Origin: an uncultured Thermoplasmatales archaeon
Lineage (GTDB): Archaea > Thermoplasmatota > SW-10-69-26
Assembly (NCBI GenBank): GCA_964492585.1
Contig: CAZBKU010000002.1
Coordinates: 1 to 30,560 of the forward strand
Length of the DNA: 30,560 bases
Direction: 5' to 3'
The position numbers were made by a program, and so were the translations under genes. Below are positions 5,111 through 10,733 of the stretch, piece by piece. The notes below the pieces were generated by a model. The model worked only from the letters and a program-made list of their open reading frames with translations. It made no database searches and was not told the DNA's origin. How positions within the stretch are numbered: the stretch's first letter is position 1; each line of letters begins with the position of its first letter.

Positions 5111-6568
5111 CTACCCCTTGATGACGCCCATGGGCGCCAGCTTGACGACCTTGTTGGAGATCCCGGCACCCTGGCAGACGTCGACGACGTTGCTGACGTC
5201 CTTGTAGGCCCCCGGGGCCTCCTCGGCGGCCACCCGGTTGCTGGCGGCCTTGACGATGATGTTCTTCTGGCTGCGCAGGTCGCGGACCAGATCCTCGCCT
5301 CGCCAGGTCTTCTTGGCCTGGGTCCGGCTCATCTGGCGCCCGGCACCATGGCAGGTCGAGCCGAAGGTCTGCTCCATGGCACCCTCGGTGCCCGAAAGCA
5401 GGTAGCTGCAGTTCCCCATATCGCCGGGGATGATGACCGGCTGACCCACGCTGCCGTAGTCGGCCGGGACATCTGGCTGGCCGGGGCCGTGGGCCCGGGT
5501 GGCGCCCTTGCGGTGGATCATCAGCTCGCGACGCTCGCCGTCGACCTCGTGGGTCTCCTTCTTGGCGATGTTGTGGGCCACGTCGTAGACGATCTCGATG
5601 CCCATGTCCTCGGCGTCGCGGCCGAAGACCTTCTCGAAGCTCTTGCGGACCTGGTGGGTGTGCACCTGCCGGTTGCAGAACGCGTAGTTGATGGCCGAGC
5701 ACATGGCCCCGTAGTAGTCCTGGGCCGGCTGGCTGTCGATGGGTGCGCAGGCCAACTGCTTGTCGACCAGCTGGTCGGTGAAACCCCGGTCGCTGCGCTC
5801 CATGGTCTTGAGGAAGTCGGTGCAGATCTGGTGCCCGTAGCCGCGCGACCCCGTGTGGATCATCACGCACACCTGGCCCTCCTCCTCGATGCCGTAGGCC
5901 TTGGCGGCTGGCTCGTCGATGATCGCCTCGACGCGTTGGACCTCCAGGAAGTGGTTGCCGCCACCCAGCGAACCGATCTGCTTCTTGCCGCGATCTTTGG
6001 ACTTCTGGCTGGCCTTGTCCGGGTCGGCCTCGGGGTGGACGCCACCGTGCTCGATGTGCTCGGCGTCGCGCTCCCAGCCGAAGCCGTGCTCGATGAGCCA
6101 GGGGACCCCGTGCTCGAGGACCTGGTCGAGCTGGCTGTGGGAGAACTTGACCCGGCTTGCGGTCCCGACGCCCGAAGGGCAGTTGTCGAAGAGGACGTCG
6201 GTGAGACGGTCGAGCTCCGGGGCGACCTCGTGGGCGGTCAGGTCCGTGCTGAGCAGCCGGACCCCGCAGTTGATATCGAAGCCGACGCCGCCGGGGCTGA
6301 TCACACCCTCCTCCATGTCGAAGGCAGCCACCCCGCCGATGGGGAAGCCGTAGCCCCAGTGGATGTCCGGCATGGCCATGCTGGCCTCCACGATGCCCGG
6401 CAGGGTGGCCACGTTAGCGACCTGCTCCATGGCGTTGTCCTCGAGGATCTGGTCGAGCATCGCGTCGTTGGCGTAGATCCGACCAGGGACGTTCATGCCC
6501 TGCTTGTAGCTGGTCGGGATCTCGTAGGTGAACTCCCCGGTCTTGTCCAGCGGGCCGTCCCAGGTCAT
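5111..6568 (-). CDS. rtcB: RNA-splicing/repair ligase RtcB
   Basis: Motifs MPDIHWGYGFPIGG, GFDINCG, LGGGNHFLE, HTGSRG, HNIAK, HRKGAT, STCHGAGR and EEAPGAYK are all present; no intein-sized insertion. Confidence 0.98.
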   Translation of the reverse strand: MTWDGPLDKTGEFTYEIPTSYKQGMNVPGRIYANDAMLDQILEDNAMEQVANVATLPGIVEASMAMPDIHWGYGFPIGGVAAFDMEEGVISPGGVGFDINCGVRLLSTDLTAHEVAPELDRLTDVLFDNCPSGVGTASRVKFSHSQLDQVLEHGVPWLIEHGFGWERDAEHIEHGGVHPEADPDKASQKSKDRGKKQIGSLGGGNHFLEVQRVEAIIDEPAAKAYGIEEEGQVCVMIHTGSRGYGHQICTDFLKTMERSDRGFTDQLVDKQLACAPIDSQPAQDYYGAMCSAINYAFCNRQVHTHQVRKSFEKVFGRDAEDMGIEIVYDVAHNIAKKETHEVDGERRELMIHRKGATRAHGPGQPDVPADYGSVGQPVIIPGDMGNCSYLLSGTEGAMEQTFGSTCHGAGRQMSRTQAKKTWRGEDLVRDLRSQKNIIVKAASNRVAAEEAPGAYKDVSNVVDVCQGAGISNKVVKLAPMGVIKG

Positions 6569-6607: not shown

Positions 6608-6898
6608 TTATCCCGACACCGGGGCCGACGGGTGGGCGGCGTGGTCACGCCGCAGCCGCTGGAGCAGAGGGCGAGCCGGGCGCTCGACCCGCTTGAGGCC
6701 CACCAGGCCGGTCGTCCAACGGATCCGGTTCTCGAGAGCTTGGATCCGGGCAGCATCCTCGGCTTCGACGGCCACGATCAGATCGAAGCTCCGGTCCTTG
6801 TCCCGCACGACGCTGAAGACGCCGGTGTGCTTGCCGACCGCTGTCTCGACCGACCGCTCGAACCCCGGGGCCGCGTTGATCCGGAAGACCGCTTTCAT
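6608..6898 (-). CDS. Stand-alone Lrp/AsnC ligand-binding (RAM) domain-like protein
   Basis: MKAVFRINAAPG...GVFSV...FDLIVAVEAED...IR...G follows the RAM beta-alpha-beta pattern; no HTH. ATG 6898 follows an SD-like GAGTGA. Confidence 0.6.
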   Translation of the reverse strand: MKAVFRINAAPGFERSVETAVGKHTGVFSVVRDKDRSFDLIVAVEAEDAARIQALENRIRWTTGLVGLKRVERPARPLLQRLRRDHAAHPSAPVSG

Positions 6899-6929
6899 GC
6901 GTACATCACTCGCCTGGTATCCCATCGGC

Positions 6930-7299
6930 GGTCAGCAAGCATGGTGTTTGGCTCTGCTAGTTACGTGCAGATCCGGGCCAACATCGCCCAACCGGACGGA
7001 GCGTGGAGCCGCGATCCCGGGAGGAGCCCTGGCGAACCACGAAGTGGGTGTAGGCGCAGCAGAGGTCTGTGCTGGCCGGCACCACGGTACGGCCAGCACC
7101 CGGGCCATGGGACGCTCCTGGCCGGCTTTCTTTCCGCAACAGCTTCCTTTGGCCGGGATGGGAGGCCGCAGGGAACGGCCTACGTCCGTGCTCGGCGCCA
7201 GCCGAGCATCCGAGGCATGGAGAGCTCGTCGGCCCGTTCTCTTTCGCAACCGTTTCTCTTGCGGGCCGACGAGGCAACGATGCCTCGACCAAGAGAAAG
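6930..7299. ncRNA. Candidate structured non-coding RNA, unassigned family
   Basis: Five consecutive hairpins: 7069-7078/7090-7099, 7116-7123/7151-7158, 7163-7168/7176-7181, 7189-7196/7201-7208, and 7211-7218/7280-7287 with inner 7225-7236/7262-7273. No credible ORF in a ~400 bp gap of an otherwise compact genome. Confidence 0.55.
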
Positions 7300-7301
7300 G
7301 G

Positions 7302-7706
7302 TTAGATGTCGAAGATGACCTCGACCAGGGCCGGGTCCTCCTCGATGGTCAGCGCGTGGTAGGTGGTGGCCTTGATCTCCATGAGGTAGCCGTGGCGATC
7401 CTCGTCCCACGTCTCGCCATGGAGCCTGGCGGTCAGGTGCCCGTCGCCGAGGTCGACCTCCGCGTCGACGGGGATGAAGCCCTCCATCTGGTGGAGGAAG
7501 TTGAGCTCGTCGAGCAGGTCGACCACCAGATCATCGACGGTGCCGGCCTTGATCTCGATGATCTCCAGGTCACGGGCCTCGACCTCGCCGTCGGGGCAGA
7601 CCAGGTGGCCGAACGCGGCCAGGAGCTCGGCCAACGCGTCCTCTAGATCATCGCCGGTGGCTCGCAGGCCGACATCAGCGGTGTGCTCGAGGACCTCCCA
7701 CGGCAT
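7302..7706 (-). CDS. Archease (RtcB activator)
   Basis: EHTADVG at the N-terminus, IKATTYH and terminal VIFDI. ATG 7706 preferred over GTG 7718. Confidence 0.95.
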   Translation of the reverse strand: MPWEVLEHTADVGLRATGDDLEDALAELLAAFGHLVCPDGEVEARDLEIIEIKAGTVDDLVVDLLDELNFLHQMEGFIPVDAEVDLGDGHLTARLHGETWDEDRHGYLMEIKATTYHALTIEEDPALVEVIFDI

Positions 7707-7817
7707 GGAGGCCGGCACCGGGGGCTTGCTTGAAGGCCTTTGCCCGCCGACGGCGCAGCCTCACCGCCGAGCCTAGAGAGCACTGGCCTCAAGTAGGCGG
7801 TCGCGTTGTCCCGTCCG

Positions 7818-9023
7818 ATGCGACGGGCGCTCCTCCTGGTCGGCCTGCTCCTTCTGGCAGGCTGCACCAGCCAGCCGGCTCCCACCGACCAAGACCAGCC
7901 GGCCTACGCTTGGAGCTCGACCAGGGTGGATCTCGACGGCGACGGGCGCTACGACCACGTCAACCTGACCCTGGTGGCCAGCCAGGCGCCGGTGGCCAGC
8001 CAGGAGGTCGAGGTCCTGATGGATGGCTCGCCGGCCGACCCGGTCCAGGGGTTGGGCGGGGGCCCCTGGCGGCCCGGCCAGGGCCTCCTCTTCACGTGTC
8101 CAGAGGGGATCCACGAGTACCAGGTGCTGATCGACGGCGAGCTGCGCAAGCTGGTCGTCCACGAGTGCGGGGTCGAGGTCCCGGTGGCGCCCCCGTCCTT
8201 CGAGGGGCGCGTGGTGGATGGGGACGCCGATGGCCGCAAGGACGCCGTCCAGCTCAGCCTGGTGAGCGGGGGACCGATCGATCCCCGCAGCCTGTCCGTG
8301 ACCGTCGACGATCGTGAGGTCCGGGTCTACGCCACCGCTTTGAAGAGCCGGGTCGCCGGGGAGCCGCTGGGCAACGGGTCGCGGGTCTACACGCCCTGTT
8401 GGCCGGGTGCCAACCAGGTGAACGTGACCTGGCGAGAGAACGCCCTGCCCGGTCTGCAGCTCTCAGGGTGTCAAGCTCACATCCCGGGGGTCGACGCCCC
8501 ACTGGTCGTGGACCAGCTCGATGTGGACGACGATGGTGTCCAGGATGGCTGGCGGTTAACGCTGGCTGCCCCCAACGACGGTGGTTTCCCGTTGGAGAAC
8601 CTGAACGCGACCTGGGACCGGACCCGCGCCCAGCTCAACGGGTCGGTGGGCCTGACCCCGCCACCCGAGCGGTGGGAGACCGGTGAGGGCCTGGTGGCGT
8701 CGTGCCCGGCCGACGGGAGCCACGCCTTCGCCCTGGCCATCGGACCCACGCCGGTCTTCCAGGGCCTGACGACGTGCGAGGCCCCGCCTGGTCGACCGTT
8801 GCTCGAGCTGGGCCTAGCAGCCGAGGACGACATGCTGAAGGCCACCCTCCTGCTGACCCGGATCGACCCCCTCAACGCCAGCCGGCTGGTGACCGCGGAT
8901 GGGGAGACCGTGGGCCAGGGGAGCTGGGGGGTCGGAGAGGAGCGAGTCATGGGCTGTCCCGGTGGGAACCTGACGCTGGTCTACGAGGACCGGCTGGCCT
9001 ACCGTGGGCCGGTCCCCTGCTAG
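7818..9023 (+). CDS. Putative surface lipoprotein with four internal repeats
   Basis: Lipobox LLLAGC, repeated DxDxDG and W..G...CP.G units, seven N-x-S/T sequons. Confidence 0.75.
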   Translation: MRRALLLVGLLLLAGCTSQPAPTDQDQPAYAWSSTRVDLDGDGRYDHVNLTLVASQAPVASQEVEVLMDGSPADPVQGLGGGPWRPGQGLLFTCPEGIHEYQVLIDGELRKLVVHECGVEVPVAPPSFEGRVVDGDADGRKDAVQLSLVSGGPIDPRSLSVTVDDREVRVYATALKSRVAGEPLGNGSRVYTPCWPGANQVNVTWRENALPGLQLSGCQAHIPGVDAPLVVDQLDVDDDGVQDGWRLTLAAPNDGGFPLENLNATWDRTRAQLNGSVGLTPPPERWETGEGLVASCPADGSHAFALAIGPTPVFQGLTTCEAPPGRPLLELGLAAEDDMLKATLLLTRIDPLNASRLVTADGETVGQGSWGVGEERVMGCPGGNLTLVYEDRLAYRGPVPC

Positions 9024-9027
9024 CGGT

Positions 9028-9228
9028 TCAACCCTCGGACCTCTCATCAGCGGCCTGCTCGCGGGTCTCCTGCTTGAGCTGCTCGAGATAGTGCTCAGCG
9101 AAGTCCTCGAGCGGGACCAGATCGAGCAGACCGTTGATGAGGTCGTCGTAGGTCGCCCGGCCCATCTTGTAGCGCGTCAGGCGCTCGTGGGTCTCGGGCT
9201 TGACCGGGATGGTCTTCCAGTCACCCAT
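9028..9228 (-). CDS. Small ribbon-helix-helix/antitoxin-like DNA-binding protein
   Basis: KTIPVKPETHERL...K...TYDDLI..LL pattern of archaeal RHH/VapB-like proteins; AT-rich promoter upstream. Confidence 0.65.
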   Translation of the reverse strand: MGDWKTIPVKPETHERLTRYKMGRATYDDLINGLLDLVPLEDFAEHYLEQLKQETREQAADERSEG

Positions 9229-9249
9229 GTTTCAACTGGAGTTCCAAAC

Positions 9250-9266
9250 GTTATAACAGTTATAAG
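9250..9266. promoter_or_regulatory. Tandem GTTATAA boxes (TATA/operator)
   Basis: GTTATAAC palindrome at 9250-9257 and GTTATAAG at 9259-9266, 22-38 nt upstream of ATG 9228. Confidence 0.55.
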
Positions 9267-9328
9267 GTTGTCTGAAGACGGCTGACGTTCGGTCGACAGG
9301 GCGGGGGCTGAACACCATGAACTGCCGC

Positions 9329-10204
9329 TTAGGCTCGCCCCTTGGTGCCGCGGCCAACCGAGCCCCGCCAGATCAAGACCTCGCCGAGGACCAGCGTCGG
9401 GAGGCCGGCGGCGACCATACGCCAGTGGTAGCTGGAGCGTCGGTCCTCGGCCGCCTCGACCCGGTCGGCCTGGCTCTCGGCGCTCGGTGATACGTGGGCC
9501 TCCCAGACCTTCTCCCGTTCGACCAGGGGCTTCTGGACGGTCCACGGCACCGGGATCCCGTCGACGGTGGGGTAGATCTCCTTCCAGAGCACCTCGTAGG
9601 TCTGGTGATCGACCACGGTGCCGGTCACCGGTTCGACGTGGACGGTCCGTTCGACGGCGCGGTACCAGGTCAGCCCGTCCTCTGGATGGAAGAACTGGTT
9701 GCCGTGGTAGGCCTCGTAGACCAGAAGCTCCAAGCCTCCCCGCTCGACGCTCCCCGTCAGGGTGAGGTTGTCGTGAGCGCCGGCATAGACGCCCTCCTCA
9801 AGCTCCCAGGGCACGGCTAGGTAGATGTTGCGGGGGGCCTCGCGGAGGTAGGGGGTCGGCGGGAAGCCGGTGCGCACGCCCTCTTCCTCGGTGAGCTCGT
9901 AGTCCTCGTGGATGGTGAACGTGAAGCGGTCGCCGCGGGGCGAATGGGGTCCCTCGACGGTCTGTTCGAACCTCAGGTCCTCGCCGGCCTGGGCCAGCCG
10001 GACCCGGTCCGTGCGGGTGGCCTGCTGCCAACCCTCCCCGGGGGACCAGTAGCGGATCGCCTCCTCGGTGGTGTGTTCCTCGCCGGCCTGGGGCCCCAGG
10101 GACTGGGGCACGATGGCGAACGCCAGGGCGCCGGCTCCTGCGACCAGCAAGACGCCGATCACGATCTGGCCGGCCCGGAGGGCCAGCGGCCACGTACCAC
10201 GCAC
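9329..10204 (-). CDS. DUF3068 (PorA family)-like membrane-anchored protein
   Basis: RTVHVEPVTGTVVD motif; hydrophobic helices at both ends. Start uncertain (GTG 10204 or TTG 10231). Confidence 0.6.
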   Translation of the reverse strand: MRGTWPLALRAGQIVIGVLLVAGAGALAFAIVPQSLGPQAGEEHTTEEAIRYWSPGEGWQQATRTDRVRLAQAGEDLRFEQTVEGPHSPRGDRFTFTIHEDYELTEEEGVRTGFPPTPYLREAPRNIYLAVPWELEEGVYAGAHDNLTLTGSVERGGLELLVYEAYHGNQFFHPEDGLTWYRAVERTVHVEPVTGTVVDHQTYEVLWKEIYPTVDGIPVPWTVQKPLVEREKVWEAHVSPSAESQADRVEAAEDRRSSYHWRMVAAGLPTLVLGEVLIWRGSVGRGTKGRA

Positions 10205-10307
10205 ACCTGGTTGGTGGAGGGGCGCCTTCAAGAACGTTGTGGCGGGCCCCTTGACCGACCCAGTCTAGAGTTAAGACGCCAGCGAGGGTTGACGGCTTAG
10301 GGATACC

Positions 10308-10733
10308 ATGACCGACTGCCTCTTCTGCAAGATCGTGGCCGGCGAGATCCCGGCCCAGACCGTCTACCAGGACGACGACGTGGTGGCCTTCCTGGACATC
10401 AACCCGCTGGCCAAGGGCCACATCCTGGTCATCCCGACGACACATGCCTCCCGCCTGGGCGAACTCGACGACGCGACGGCGAGCACCTACTTCGCCAAGA
10501 TCCCGGCGATCACCCAGGCCGTCGAGGACGCCGTCGGTGCAGACGGGGCCACCCTGGCCTGGAACGACGGACCCGCCGCCGGGCAGGAGGTCGACCACAC
10601 CCACCTGCACATCGTGCCACGTTGGACCAGCGACGCCCACGGCCCGATCCACGCCCTGTTCGGTGGCACTGAGGACCTCAGCGACGAGGAGCAGGCCAAG
10701 GTCCAAGAGGCGATCCGGGACCGGCTGGGATGA
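10308..10733 (+). CDS. HIT family nucleotide hydrolase
   Basis: CLFCKIVAGEIP start, FLDINP, and the histidine triad HTHLHIVPR. Confidence 0.95.
   Translation: MTDCLFCKIVAGEIPAQTVYQDDDVVAFLDINPLAKGHILVIPTTHASRLGELDDATASTYFAKIPAITQAVEDAVGADGATLAWNDGPAAGQEVDHTHLHIVPRWTSDAHGPIHALFGGTEDLSDEEQAKVQEAIRDRLG

What the first reader, a model, noticed from the sequence alone, without database searches (positions are those of the whole stretch)
6899..7301. Candidate novel structured RNA embedded in the archease-rtcB RNA ligase locus
Seen: ~400 bp with no credible ORF where most gaps are under 100 bp. From 7069 to 7287 it is tiled by five hairpins (10 bp; 8 bp; 6 bp; 8 bp; 8+12 bp around a 6x6 internal loop). 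Extra long-range complements: 6952-6958/7058-7064, 6999-7005/7112-7118, and 6930-6942/7280-7290 (end-to-end closure, with G-U pairs only on the minus strand). I could not find RNase P, SRP, tRNA or C/D-box signatures. Known: archease activates RtcB, and some bacterial rtcB loci encode non-coding Y RNAs with Ro60. Inference: an archaeal RtcB/archease-linked ncRNA (partner, substrate or circularised product), or a structured leader for the downstream RAM-domain gene. Orientation is unresolved because G-U asymmetry points both ways.
Basis: partly seen in the sequence, partly recalled or inferred. Interest (0 to 1): 0.88.

Follow-up and report, generated by a model that had tools for sequence, protein, structure and literature searches.

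The report
Archaeal RNA pseudoknot with triple helix
The gap after the archease gene holds a conserved, previously undescribed RNA fold, most likely read antisense to archease, in which two U-rich loop strands clamp a nearby A-rich tract into a long triple helix of the kind that protects RNAs such as human MALAT1, a kind not yet reported in archaea.

Summary
The 403-nt gap is real and has no Rfam, tRNA or Pfam match. Only part of it is a conserved structure.

The core is window 7211-7301, preceded by the hairpin at 7188-7209. It recurs directly after the archease stop codon in every close relative whose contig reaches that far (archease 55-87% identical). It does so whether or not rtcB is adjacent.

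The core has two stems, P1 (7-8 bp) and P2 (12-14 bp), around a conserved 6x6 loop. Both stems covary strongly. The 25-nt P2 loop carries two U/C-rich strands that mirror each other. The 3' strand is the exact Watson-Crick complement of an A/G-rich tract 30-34 nt downstream, which makes a pseudoknot. The 5' strand matches that tract in parallel register (U over A, C over G). All three strands change together across seven sequence variants. That is the signature of a U.A-U / C+.G-C major-groove triple helix of 8-10 layers.

G.U wobbles and triplex chemistry favour the window + strand, antisense to archease and rtcB.

7100-7185 is a decayed second copy.

I propose an ENE-like self-capping stability element. 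Transcription, RNA ends and function are untested.

The parts
7211..7218 (+). P1 5' strand (CGAGGCAU)
   Evidence: Pairs with 7280-7287. RNAalifold predicts 7 pairs of this stem on an unsupervised alignment. In the 8-pair hand alignment, 7 pairs show changes on both sides.
7219..7224 (+). Internal loop, 5' side (GGAGAG; family consensus G-S-R-N-C-G)
   Evidence: Always 6 nt, with conserved G at the first and last positions. The topology requires a sharp turn here (inference).
7225..7236 (+). P2 5' strand (CUCGUCGGCCCG)
   Evidence: Pairs with 7262-7273. P2 is 12-14 bp in all relatives; 11 of 14 alignment pairs show changes on both sides and 97.9% of cells are paired. RNAalifold predicts it independently.
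7237..7245 (+). H strand: U/C-rich 5' loop strand (UUCUCUUUC), proposed Hoogsteen third strand
   Evidence: It matches the A-tract in parallel register: 9 of 9 positions here and 72 of 81 over nine modules, against 56% or less when slid. It swaps U.A to C.G at all four variable positions. Parallel fits better than any antiparallel register.
7246..7252 (+). Cap loop (GCAACCG) joining the H and W strands
   Evidence: 4-7 nt and variable in relatives, often with a GNRA-like tetramer (GCAA, GUGA, GCGA) on this strand.
7253..7261 (+). W strand: U/C-rich 3' loop strand (UUUCUCUUG), Watson-Crick partner of the A-tract
   Evidence: Exact complement of 7290-7298. This is the pseudoknot helix: 97.8% of cells are paired and 11 pairs show changes on both sides. 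It is 9-16 bp long in relatives.
7262..7273 (+). P2 3' strand (CGGGCCGACGAG)
   Evidence: See the P2 5' strand.
7274..7279 (+). Internal loop, 3' side (GCAACG; family consensus R-C-N-N-C-G)
   Evidence: Always 6 nt, with C and G at positions 5-6 nearly invariant.
7280..7287 (+). P1 3' strand (AUGCCUCG)
   Evidence: See the P1 5' strand.
7290..7301 (+). A/G-rich tract (CAAGAGAAAGGG), the purine strand of the proposed triple helix. Its complement on the minus strand is the U-rich tract directly after the archease stop codon.
   Evidence: Three-way covariation with W and H. The distance from W to the A-tract is constant at 30-34 nt. The tract lies 0-4 nt from the archease stop in all loci.
7188..7209 (+). 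Hairpin B (GUGCUCGGC-GCCA-GCCGAGCAU), one nt 5' of P1; part of the repeated unit
   Evidence: z -5.05. Equivalent GUGC/GCGC hairpins precede the modules in L003 (three times) and L006.
7069..7099 (+). Hairpin A (10 bp, loop GCACCACGGUA), which precedes the decayed second module
   Evidence: z -4.0. The stem is identical in L005 and L003, so there is no covariation.
7100..7185 (+). Decayed second copy of the module. H-like strand at 7126-7135, W-like strand at 7143-7152, A-like tract at 7170-7175. P1 is lost and P2 is interrupted.
   Evidence: CM hit at 7109-7170 scores only 15.5 bits. Fold z -0.46. L003 has an intact copy at the same place (103 bits).

Best explanation
SHOWN (comparative evidence):
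- Window 7188-7301 is a self-contained RNA unit, most likely transcribed from the + strand (antisense and convergent to archease).
- A short hairpin is followed by an H-type pseudoknot. Stem P2 (12 bp) carries a 25-nt loop made of a U/C-rich strand (H), a short cap, and a second U/C-rich strand (W) that mirrors H.
- W pairs by Watson-Crick with the A/G-rich tract at 7290-7301.
- H matches the same purines in parallel register, as expected for Hoogsteen pairing in the major groove. This gives about eight stacked U.A-U and C+.G-C triples on top of P2.

INFERRED:
- The strand that returns from P2 to the A-tract is itself base-paired (P1). P1 must therefore fold back alongside P2 through the conserved 6x6 loop.
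- The most likely function is a genomically encoded triple-helix cap, like ENE plus A-rich tract. It would make the RNA's 3' region resistant to 3'-to-5' exonucleases and so stabilise a non-coding RNA that ends tail-to-tail with archease.
- The complement of the A-tract on the other strand is the U-rich run directly after the archease stop. It probably serves as the archease terminator, so one stretch of DNA would do two jobs.

My confidence in the fold is about 0.7. My confidence in this function is about 0.35-0.4.
For: Conservation: the module sits 0-4 nt from the archease stop in the window, L002-L010 and L066. It is found nowhere else in the 30.5-kb window and in none of 54 loci with distant archeases.

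Stems: RNAalifold on an unsupervised MAFFT alignment predicts P1 and P2, with 17 of 19 pairs compensated. On the structural alignment, 96.2% of 366 cells pair against 72.7% in shuffles (0 of 500 reach it). 29 of 38 pairs change on both sides. Slid controls reach at most 62%.

Pseudoknot: W and the A-tract are perfectly complementary over 9-16 nt through seven different tract sequences.

Third strand:
- 72 of 81 positions (89%) are Hoogsteen-compatible in the one register fixed by the top of P2. Slid registers give 56% or less.
- Exchanging A-tracts among modules reaches the observed value in 9 of 20,000 trials.
- All four variable positions swap U.A to C.G: 97.9% against 75.9% in shuffles.
- The parallel register beats every antiparallel register (89% against at most 74%). 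Most A-tract G's face a C in H, and most C's in H face a G.

Chance: a generic H/W/A triad scan of 637,602 nt finds triads only in these modules, plus four viral loci that had been selected with that same pattern.

Strand: 11 G.U cells against 2 A.C cells on the + strand. The + strand hairpin folds better than the - strand (z -5.8 against -4.65).

Chemistry (from my own knowledge): long natural RNA triplexes are of the pyrimidine motif, and RNA strands are reported to be excluded from purine-motif triplexes.
Against: - There are no expression data. No promoter or 3'-end signal was found for a + strand RNA.
- The H and W strands of some relatives contain T5 runs. These could terminate archaeal RNA polymerase before the A-tract is made.
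- The strand call rests on only about 4-6 independent internal G.U events against 1.
- Only about nine independent modules exist, all from one narrow lineage, and alignment A5 was built by hand to fit the model.
- The H strand is imperfect: a G or an extra C appears at positions 7-8 in L003, L006 and L010. L007 has G.C-G at one layer.
- One copy (L003:954-1047) lies about 40 nt upstream of a gene on the same strand, which is not where a 3'-end cap would be expected.
- P1 can only be accommodated if the 6x6 loop makes a near-180-degree turn. That is plausible but unproven.
Confidence: 0.5

Rival explanations
1. The functional RNA is the minus (sense) strand. In this view the module is the 3' UTR of the archease mRNA. 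The U-tract after the stop pairs with the first purine-rich loop strand to form a pseudoknot. That pseudoknot stabilises the mRNA 3' end or controls read-through into the small ORF and rtcB.
For: All flanking genes are on the minus strand. The module starts 0-4 nt after the stop codon in every locus. P1, P2 and the pseudoknot can also form on this strand, with z -4.65. There is one sense-only G.U, in P1 of L007/L008.
Against: On this strand, 11 wobble cells become A.C mismatches. The mirror symmetry of the two loop strands would require a purine.purine-pyrimidine RNA triplex, which is not known as a stable RNA structure (my own knowledge). Otherwise the symmetry has no explanation. The U-tract is T5 in most relatives and looks like an archaeal terminator, which would end the mRNA before the module. 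A spacer of 0-4 nt is too short for a recoding pseudoknot. L010 and L065 show that the region persists between convergent genes.
Confidence: 0.2
2. The fold is as proposed, but it is a sensor rather than a stability cap. In this view it is a riboswitch-like or pH/Mg-responsive pseudoknot, with the conserved 6x6 loop as a ligand or protein pocket. The C+.G-C triples would make it pH-sensitive.
For: The known triplex pseudoknots of prokaryotes are riboswitches (SAM-II, SAM-V, preQ1-II, guanidine-III; review PMC13541005). The internal-loop nucleotides are conserved. Modules occur in tandem, as some riboswitches do. One copy lies about 40 nt upstream of a gene on the same strand (L003:954-1047).
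Against: Ten of eleven copies have no downstream gene on their strand. No expression platform is visible. There is no Rfam riboswitch hit. The triplex is much longer than in any riboswitch.
Confidence: 0.1
3. The feature works at the DNA level. Possibilities are a mirror-repeat (H-DNA) or cruciform element acting as a bidirectional terminator, insulator or recombination hot spot, or a small non-autonomous mobile element that duplicates locally.
For: The units have duplicated in tandem together with the last ~15 nt of the archease coding sequence. In L003, a unit was also copied upstream of archease, bounded by 25-nt direct repeats. Four of 14 contigs end inside the module. Both strands carry T-rich runs.
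Against: H-DNA needs only the mirror repeat. It does not need a third matching tract on the same strand at a fixed 30-34 nt distance. Compensatory changes and the G.U asymmetry in P1 and P2 point to a single-stranded transcript. There are no dispersed copies in about 75 kb of same-lineage DNA or in the window. No transposase or integrase gene is nearby.
Confidence: 0.08
4. This is the first reader's reading: an RtcB/archease-linked RNA that is a ligation substrate, a circularised product or a Y-RNA-like partner, or a structured leader for the downstream small ORF.
For: The genomic linkage to archease is conserved in all close relatives, and rtcB is usually within 0.4-2 kb.
Against: Bulge-helix-bulge candidates occur at chance frequency (1-4 per 500 nt) and at non-conserved positions. 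There is no tRNA, Y RNA or other Rfam family hit. The module persists without an adjacent rtcB (L010). The small ORF is absent in L003 although the modules are present. The preferred strand is opposite to the ORF.
Confidence: 0.05

Closest known systems
ENE plus genomically encoded A-rich tract at the 3' ends of MALAT1 and MEN-beta (also KSHV PAN ENE, and ENEs and double ENEs of viral and transposon RNAs)
   Same: Two U-rich strands held by a stem clamp an A-rich tract into stacked U.A-U triples interrupted by C+.G-C. The 5' U-strand is Hoogsteen and parallel, and the 3' U-strand is Watson-Crick. The A-tract is encoded in cis, as in MALAT1. Modules can occur in tandem, like double ENEs. The length of 8-10 layers is comparable to MALAT1.
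   Different: The U-strands lie in a hairpin loop closed by a 4-7-nt cap, not in an internal loop beneath a stable upper stem. The A-tract is tethered through an extra helix (P1) and a conserved 6x6 loop, which gives an H-type pseudoknot topology. The host is archaeal and the element sits in a G+C-rich frame. There is no sequence or Rfam similarity. No tRNA-like 3' processing signal follows. A stabilising function has not been shown.
Triplex-containing H-type pseudoknots: telomerase RNA pseudoknot; SAM-II, SAM-V, preQ1-II and guanidine-III riboswitches
   Same: The topology is the same: stem 1, then a U-rich loop 1 lying in the major groove of stem 2, with stem 2 formed with a downstream purine strand. 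U.A-U triples are present. Of the known examples, only these classes are prokaryotic.
   Different: Those have 3-6 triples, whereas this one has 8-10. Loop 3 here is itself a helix. No ligand is known, and in most copies no regulated gene lies downstream. No Rfam model matches.
Bacterial rsr (Ro60)-Y RNA-rtcBA loci
   Same: A non-coding RNA gene is conserved next to RNA-repair and ligation genes.
   Different: There are no Y RNA (YrlA/YrlB) family hits. No tRNA-like domain is found. The linkage is to archease rather than rtcB. The fold is different.
Archaeal oligo-U intrinsic terminators
   Same: The minus-strand complement of the A-tract is a U-rich run directly after the archease stop, where archaeal terminators usually lie (my own knowledge).
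   Different: A terminator needs no matched mirror-repeat strands and no covarying stems downstream.

Membership tests
ENE / ENE+A triple-helix stability elements | Two U-rich strands held by a flanking stem | tested here: met
   The H and W strands flank the cap on top of the covarying stem P2 in all 11 complete modules. However, they lie in a hairpin loop, not in an internal loop with an upper stem.
ENE / ENE+A triple-helix stability elements | An A-rich partner strand that is Watson-Crick to the 3' U-strand and Hoogsteen (parallel) to the 5' U-strand | tested here: met
   Met at the level of sequence covariation only. W:A has 97.8% of cells paired. H.A is 89% compatible in register, against 56% or less when slid and at most 74% antiparallel. 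Physical triplex formation is not testable with these tools.
ENE / ENE+A triple-helix stability elements | Match to the Rfam covariance models of known ENE or triple-helix families | tested here: not met
   No such family appears even at E<=10 in 6700-7500, or at E<=0.5 in six related loci.
ENE / ENE+A triple-helix stability elements | Located at or near the RNA 3' end, where it protects against 3'-5' decay | not testable with these tools
   No transcript ends or decay data are available. One copy lies upstream of a gene on the same strand.
H-type pseudoknot with major-groove triplex (telomerase / SAM-II type) | Order stem1-5', loop 1, stem2-5', stem1-3', loop 3, stem2-3', with loop 1 pyrimidine-rich and matched to the stem 2 purines | tested here: met
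   The order P2a, H, W, P2b, (loop+P1b), A-tract holds in all modules.
Riboswitch | Sits in the 5' leader of a regulated gene on the same strand, with an expression platform | tested here: not met
   Ten of eleven copies face the 3' end of archease, with no gene downstream on their strand.
Y RNA / Ro60-associated RNA | Match to the Y_RNA, YrlA or YrlB models, and a tRNA-like or Ro-binding stem | tested here: not met
   No Rfam hit and no tRNA-like element.
Archaeal BHB intron / circular RNA (EndA + RtcB substrate) | A bulge-helix-bulge motif (3-nt bulges around a 4-bp helix) at conserved boundaries | tested here: not met
   There are 1-4 minimal candidates per ~500 nt, at different positions in each locus. 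They agree only between the near-identical window and L005.
RNase P RNA, SRP RNA, C/D or H/ACA sRNA, tRNA | Match to the family covariance model or to ARAGORN | tested here: not met
Protein-coding gene | A conserved reading frame or a family match | tested here: not met
   No Pfam hit for the four ORFs in the gap. Relatives differ by indels that are not multiples of three, and by compensatory stem changes.

The most novel reading that the evidence does not exclude
This would be the first ENE-like element found in Archaea. It would be a genomically encoded A-rich tract clamped by two U-rich strands into an 8-10-layer U.A-U / C+.G-C triple helix, within a new pseudoknot architecture that folds back on itself. 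It would cap a non-coding RNA transcribed convergently to archease. That RNA also carries repeated copies of the antisense of the last archease codons, so it might regulate archease, and through it RtcB-dependent RNA ligation.
Probability: 0.4. Interest if true: 0.85.

Novelty: new variant of a known kind. Interest (0 to 1): 0.78.

Why it matters
Long major-groove RNA triple helices that protect RNA ends are known from vertebrate lncRNAs, some viruses and eukaryotic transposons. In prokaryotes only short triplexes in riboswitches and group II introns are described (review PMC13541005).

An archaeal example with clean three-way covariation would have several consequences:
- It would extend this stabilisation principle to a third domain of life.
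- It would give a compact natural model of about 115 nt for triplex folding. The model includes several C+.G-C layers, so it should be pH-sensitive.
- It would provide a new search template (mirror U-strands plus an A-tract at a fixed distance) for finding such elements in prokaryotic genomes.
- It would point to an unstudied RNA partner of the archease locus.

Tried and rejected
- Rfam at gathering score and at E<=10 on the window, and at E<=0.5 on six related loci, found nothing real. ARAGORN found no tRNA.
- Coding potential: there are no Pfam hits for the ORFs in the gap. The frame after the archease stop stays open for 47 to about 130 codons in several loci. I read this as G+C-rich chance. 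The conserved 48-nt block in L007/L009/L010 shows no third-codon-position pattern (read by eye).
- Stop-codon read-through or frameshift pseudoknot: the spacer of 0-4 nt is too short, and all three stop codons are used.
- Bulge-helix-bulge intron or circular RNA: candidates are at chance level.
- H strand as an alternative Watson-Crick partner of the A-tract (a two-state switch): every fixed antiparallel register fits worse than the parallel one, and the C/G positions do not fit.
- Dispersed repeat or MITE: there are no other copies in the window or in the same-lineage loci.
- Viral relatives: a pattern scan of IMG/VR gave four A+T-rich coding matches without stems and with no CM score, so these are chance matches.
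- Distant archease loci: none of the 54 metagenome loci with 27-40% identical archease has the module. Of the more distant members of the clade, L065, L067 and L068 lack it.
- The genome-contig scan gave only one relative, and its contig ends 13 nt after archease.
- Promoter search: no A+T-rich box lies in the window gap apart from the triplex strands themselves.
- 'RAM domain' label of the 96-aa ORF: no Pfam or PDB sequence match.
Full report
LOCUS. All genes around the finding lie on the minus strand: archease (7718..7302; Pfam PF01951, E 1.8e-30), a 403-nt gap (7301..6899), a 96-aa ORF with no family match (6898..6608), and RtcB (6568..5111; PF01139, E 1.3e-171). G+C is 61-70% across the stretch.

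OBSERVATION. The gap is real. The ORFs inside it have no Pfam match. Rfam gives nothing at gathering score for the whole window and only noise at E<=10 for 6700-7500. ARAGORN finds no tRNA.

As a whole, the 403 nt fold only marginally better than dinucleotide shuffles (z -2.1 on the minus strand, -2.3 on the plus strand). Piece by piece the picture is sharper:
- 7211-7289 has z -5.8 on + and -4.65 on -.
- 7186-7211 has z -5.05.
- 7069-7099 has z -4.0.
- 7100-7185 has z -0.46.

RELATIVES. Archease homologues of 49-87% identity exist only in a small set of metagenome contigs. Where named, they are labelled Thermoplasmatota or Thermoplasmatales. I fetched 14 such contigs.

In every close relative whose contig continues past archease, a non-coding stretch of 196-531 nt follows the stop codon. 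This holds for several gene arrangements:
- rtcB follows directly in L003.
- A small ORF then rtcB follows in L005.
- A 247-aa gene then rtcB follows in L006.
- An ABC transporter then rtcB follows in L007/L008.
- rtcB follows again in L009.
- A convergent acyl-CoA dehydrogenase follows in L010, with no rtcB.

The conserved linkage is therefore to the 3' end of archease, not to rtcB.

THE MODULE. Alignment of these stretches shows one block conserved in all of them, starting 0-4 nt after the stop codon. I describe it on the window + strand, for reasons given under STRAND:

| Part | Coordinates | Sequence / size |
|---|---|---|
| P1a | 7211-7218 | |
| 6-nt loop | 7219-7224 | |
| P2a | 7225-7236 | |
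| H | 7237-7245 | UUCUCUUUC |
| cap | 7246-7252 | |
| W | 7253-7261 | UUUCUCUUG |
| P2b | 7262-7273 | |
| 6-nt loop | 7274-7279 | |
| P1b | 7280-7287 | |
| linker | 7288-7289 | 2 nt |
| A-tract | 7290-7301 | CAAGAGAAAGGG |

The reverse complement of the archease stop codon follows at 7302-7304.

A covariance model built from ten modules scores 82-103 bits on the relatives and 85.9 bits on the window. It found three further things:
- An intact second copy in L003 (103 bits).
- A divergent third copy upstream of archease at L003:954-1047 (51 bits).
- A weak hit at window 7109-7170 (15.5 bits).

It found nothing elsewhere in the window, and nothing in 54 loci with distant (27-40% identical) archeases. 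Of the more distant clade members, L066 has the module (cut by the contig end), while L065, L067 and L068 lack it.

STEMS AND PSEUDOKNOT. RNAalifold on the unsupervised MAFFT alignment predicts P1 and P2 by itself, and 17 of 19 pairs are kept through changes on both sides.

I also built a structural alignment of 13 modules by hand. It was N-padded, and MAFFT left it ungapped. On it, the 38 pairs of P1, P2 and the W:A-tract helix gave the following:
- 96.2% of 366 cells are paired, against 72.7% in column shuffles (0 of 500 shuffles reach the observed value).
- 29 pairs have changes on both sides.
- At most 62% are paired when the partners are slid by 1-3 columns.

W is the exact complement of the A-tract over 9-16 nt in every module, although the tract itself differs among them. 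The tract variants are:
- AAGAGAAA
- AAAGAAAAA
- AAAGAAGAG
- AAAACAAAAA
- AAAAGAAAGG
- AAAAAGAAAAA
- AAGGAAGG

THIRD STRAND. H is not a direct copy of W. It is W's mirror image. Read from the top of P2, position i of H carries U where A-tract position i+1 is A, and C where it is G. This is the parallel, Hoogsteen-type relation of a pyrimidine-motif triplex (U.A-U, C+.G-C). The evidence:
- In this single register, fixed by the structure, 72 of 81 positions (89%) fit, against 47-56% for registers slid by 1-3.
- Dealing the A-tracts out among modules reaches the observed total in 9 of 20,000 permutations.
- With the pair-counting tool, the four variable layers all show U.A to C.G exchanges: 97.9% compatible against 75.9% shuffled, and at most 72% when slid.
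- The flanking layers are invariant U.A and so uninformative.
- The alternative, that H is a second Watson-Crick partner of the tract, fits worse in every fixed antiparallel register (at most 74%). It would also put U, not C, opposite most G's.

A generic scan for such H/W/A triads was run over 637,602 nt, covering both strands of the window and all 72 fetched loci. It finds them only in these modules and in four viral loci that had been picked with that very pattern. Those four are A+T-rich coding DNA without stems and do not score with the model. The W-to-tract distance is constant at 30-34 nt.

Mutation does not generate mirror repeats. Selection for a triplex is the simplest explanation.

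STRAND. The complementary strand would show the same symmetry as a purine.purine-pyrimidine triplex. Two things favour the + strand:
1. There are 11 G.U cells that would be A.C mismatches on the minus strand, against 2 cells of the opposite kind. Counting only internal, independent events, the ratio is about 4-6 to 1. This is suggestive, not decisive.
2. From my own knowledge, natural extended RNA triplexes are of the pyrimidine motif, and RNA strands are reported not to form purine-motif triplexes.

The RNA would therefore be antisense and convergent to archease.

TOPOLOGY (inference). P2 is stem 1 and W:A is stem 2 of an H-type pseudoknot. H is loop 1, lying in the major groove of stem 2.

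Loop 3 is the 6-nt loop plus P1b plus the 0-4-nt linker. It must run from the bottom to the top of the 12-14-bp P2. Because P1b is paired with P1a, the 7-8-bp P1 helix has to lie alongside P2. The two conserved 6-nt strands (G-S-R-N-C-G and R-C-N-N-C-G) would then form a U-turn. The lengths are mutually consistent across relatives.

THE REST OF THE GAP. Each module is preceded by a short G+C-rich hairpin that starts GUGC or GCGC. In the window these are 7188-7209 before the intact module and 7069-7099 before the decayed one. L003 has three such hairpins and L006 has one.

The repeated unit is therefore hairpin plus module, about 115-150 nt.
- L003 has two intact units in tandem downstream of archease. 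It also has one unit, plus the 3' remnant of another, in a roughly 190-nt insertion upstream of archease, bounded by 25-nt direct repeats (one search compared).
- The duplications carried along the last ~15 nt of the archease coding sequence.
- Window 7100-7185 is such a second unit in decay. P1 is lost, P2 is interrupted, and the W-to-tract pairing is down to 6 bp.
- Window 6899-7068 is conserved only with the near-identical L005. Towards its end it carries the probable promoter and start region of the downstream genes.

FUNCTION. The fold is shown by comparison. Everything about function is inferred.

The closest analogue is the ENE plus A-rich tract of MALAT1 and MEN-beta, together with the viral and transposon ENEs. 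In those, the triplex shields the RNA 3' end from decay. I therefore propose a self-capping stability element on a non-coding RNA that ends tail-to-tail with archease. The complement of its A-tract would serve as the U-rich terminator of archease.

The weak points are these:
- There is no expression evidence.
- No promoter or 3'-end signal was found.
- T5 runs inside H or W of some relatives could terminate transcription early.
- One copy lies upstream of a gene on its own strand.

For the last, a bulge-helix-bulge scan found only chance-level, non-conserved candidates.

NOVELTY. There is no Rfam family for this element. Full-text searches found no archaeal ENE-like triple helix. A 2026 review of RNA triple helices lists only riboswitch and group II intron triplexes for prokaryotes. 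Searches on archease with antisense or non-coding RNA found nothing relevant. I class the element as a new variant of a known kind: a triplex pseudoknot or ENE-like element with a new architecture in a new domain of life.

CAVEATS.
- The family is small, about nine independent modules from one lineage.
- The structural alignment was built to fit the model, although RNAalifold and the register controls are independent of that step.
- The shuffle controls ignore phylogeny.
- Neither the strand nor the function has been tested experimentally.

Noticed in passing
L001 (contig end 13 nt after archease), L002:5405-5476, L004:4738-4843, L066:3420-3478: Four of 14 contigs that carry this archease end inside or just next to the module. 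L004 ends in a run of G. Likely causes are assembly breaks at the tandemly repeated units or poor sequencing through the structure.
   Followed up: partly
L003:954-1150 compared with window 7719-7805: L003 has a roughly 190-nt insertion between archease and the divergent lipoprotein-like gene. It holds one full unit and the 3' remnant of another, bounded by 25-nt direct repeats (NACCGATGGCTCYACCCAAGGAAGG). This shows that the unit can be copied to a new site.
   Followed up: partly
L007:4512-4570, L009:4524-4580, L010:1704-1760 (locus + strand); L003 between the modules and before the third copy: Copies of the archease 3'-terminal coding sequence (GATCTTCG / CATCTTCGAC) recur next to the modules in places that do not overlap archease. 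They are conserved across lineages without a codon-position pattern. On the proposed RNA they are antisense to the last archease codons.
   Followed up: partly
L007:4600-4680, L010:1950-2060, L065:3500-3600 (approximate): A second conserved non-coding block, consisting of an A+T-rich box followed by GGCNGCTGTCTCGTAG...CTACGGGCG, lies between convergent genes in L010 and L065. L065 has this block but no triplex module. It may be the promoter or 5' part of the same RNA, or a separate small RNA. It has no Rfam hit.
   Followed up: partly
window 6896-6975, minus strand: A 15-codon upstream ORF (ATG at 6942) ends in an ATGA overlap with the ATG at 6898 of the small ORF. A box GTAACTAG lies about 25 nt upstream of that ATG. 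L003, L009 and L067 have CTAG or CTTAAG boxes at the same distance from the rtcB ATG. This suggests leaderless transcripts that start at these ATGs.
   Followed up: no
The ORF is present in L005 and absent in L003, where rtcB follows the element directly.
   Followed up: partly
window 6957-7304, minus strand, and the same region in L003, L006, L007, L009, L010: The reading frame stays open in phase with archease for 47 to about 130 codons after the stop codon in every locus examined. This is probably a G+C-rich chance effect. The extension is not conserved as protein.
   Followed up: partly
window 7326-7339 with 6927-6939, minus strand: A minimal bulge-helix-bulge-like pairing spans the whole gap in the window and in the near-identical L005. 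It is absent in L003 and in other relatives, and I judge it to be chance.
   Followed up: yes
window 7806-10733; L002, L004, L009, L067: The neighbourhood upstream of archease is syntenic across the lineage. It holds a ~400-aa protein with a signal and lipobox-like N-terminus and no Pfam match, a 57-66-aa DUF7557 protein, a PorA-like protein and a HIT-family protein.
   Followed up: no
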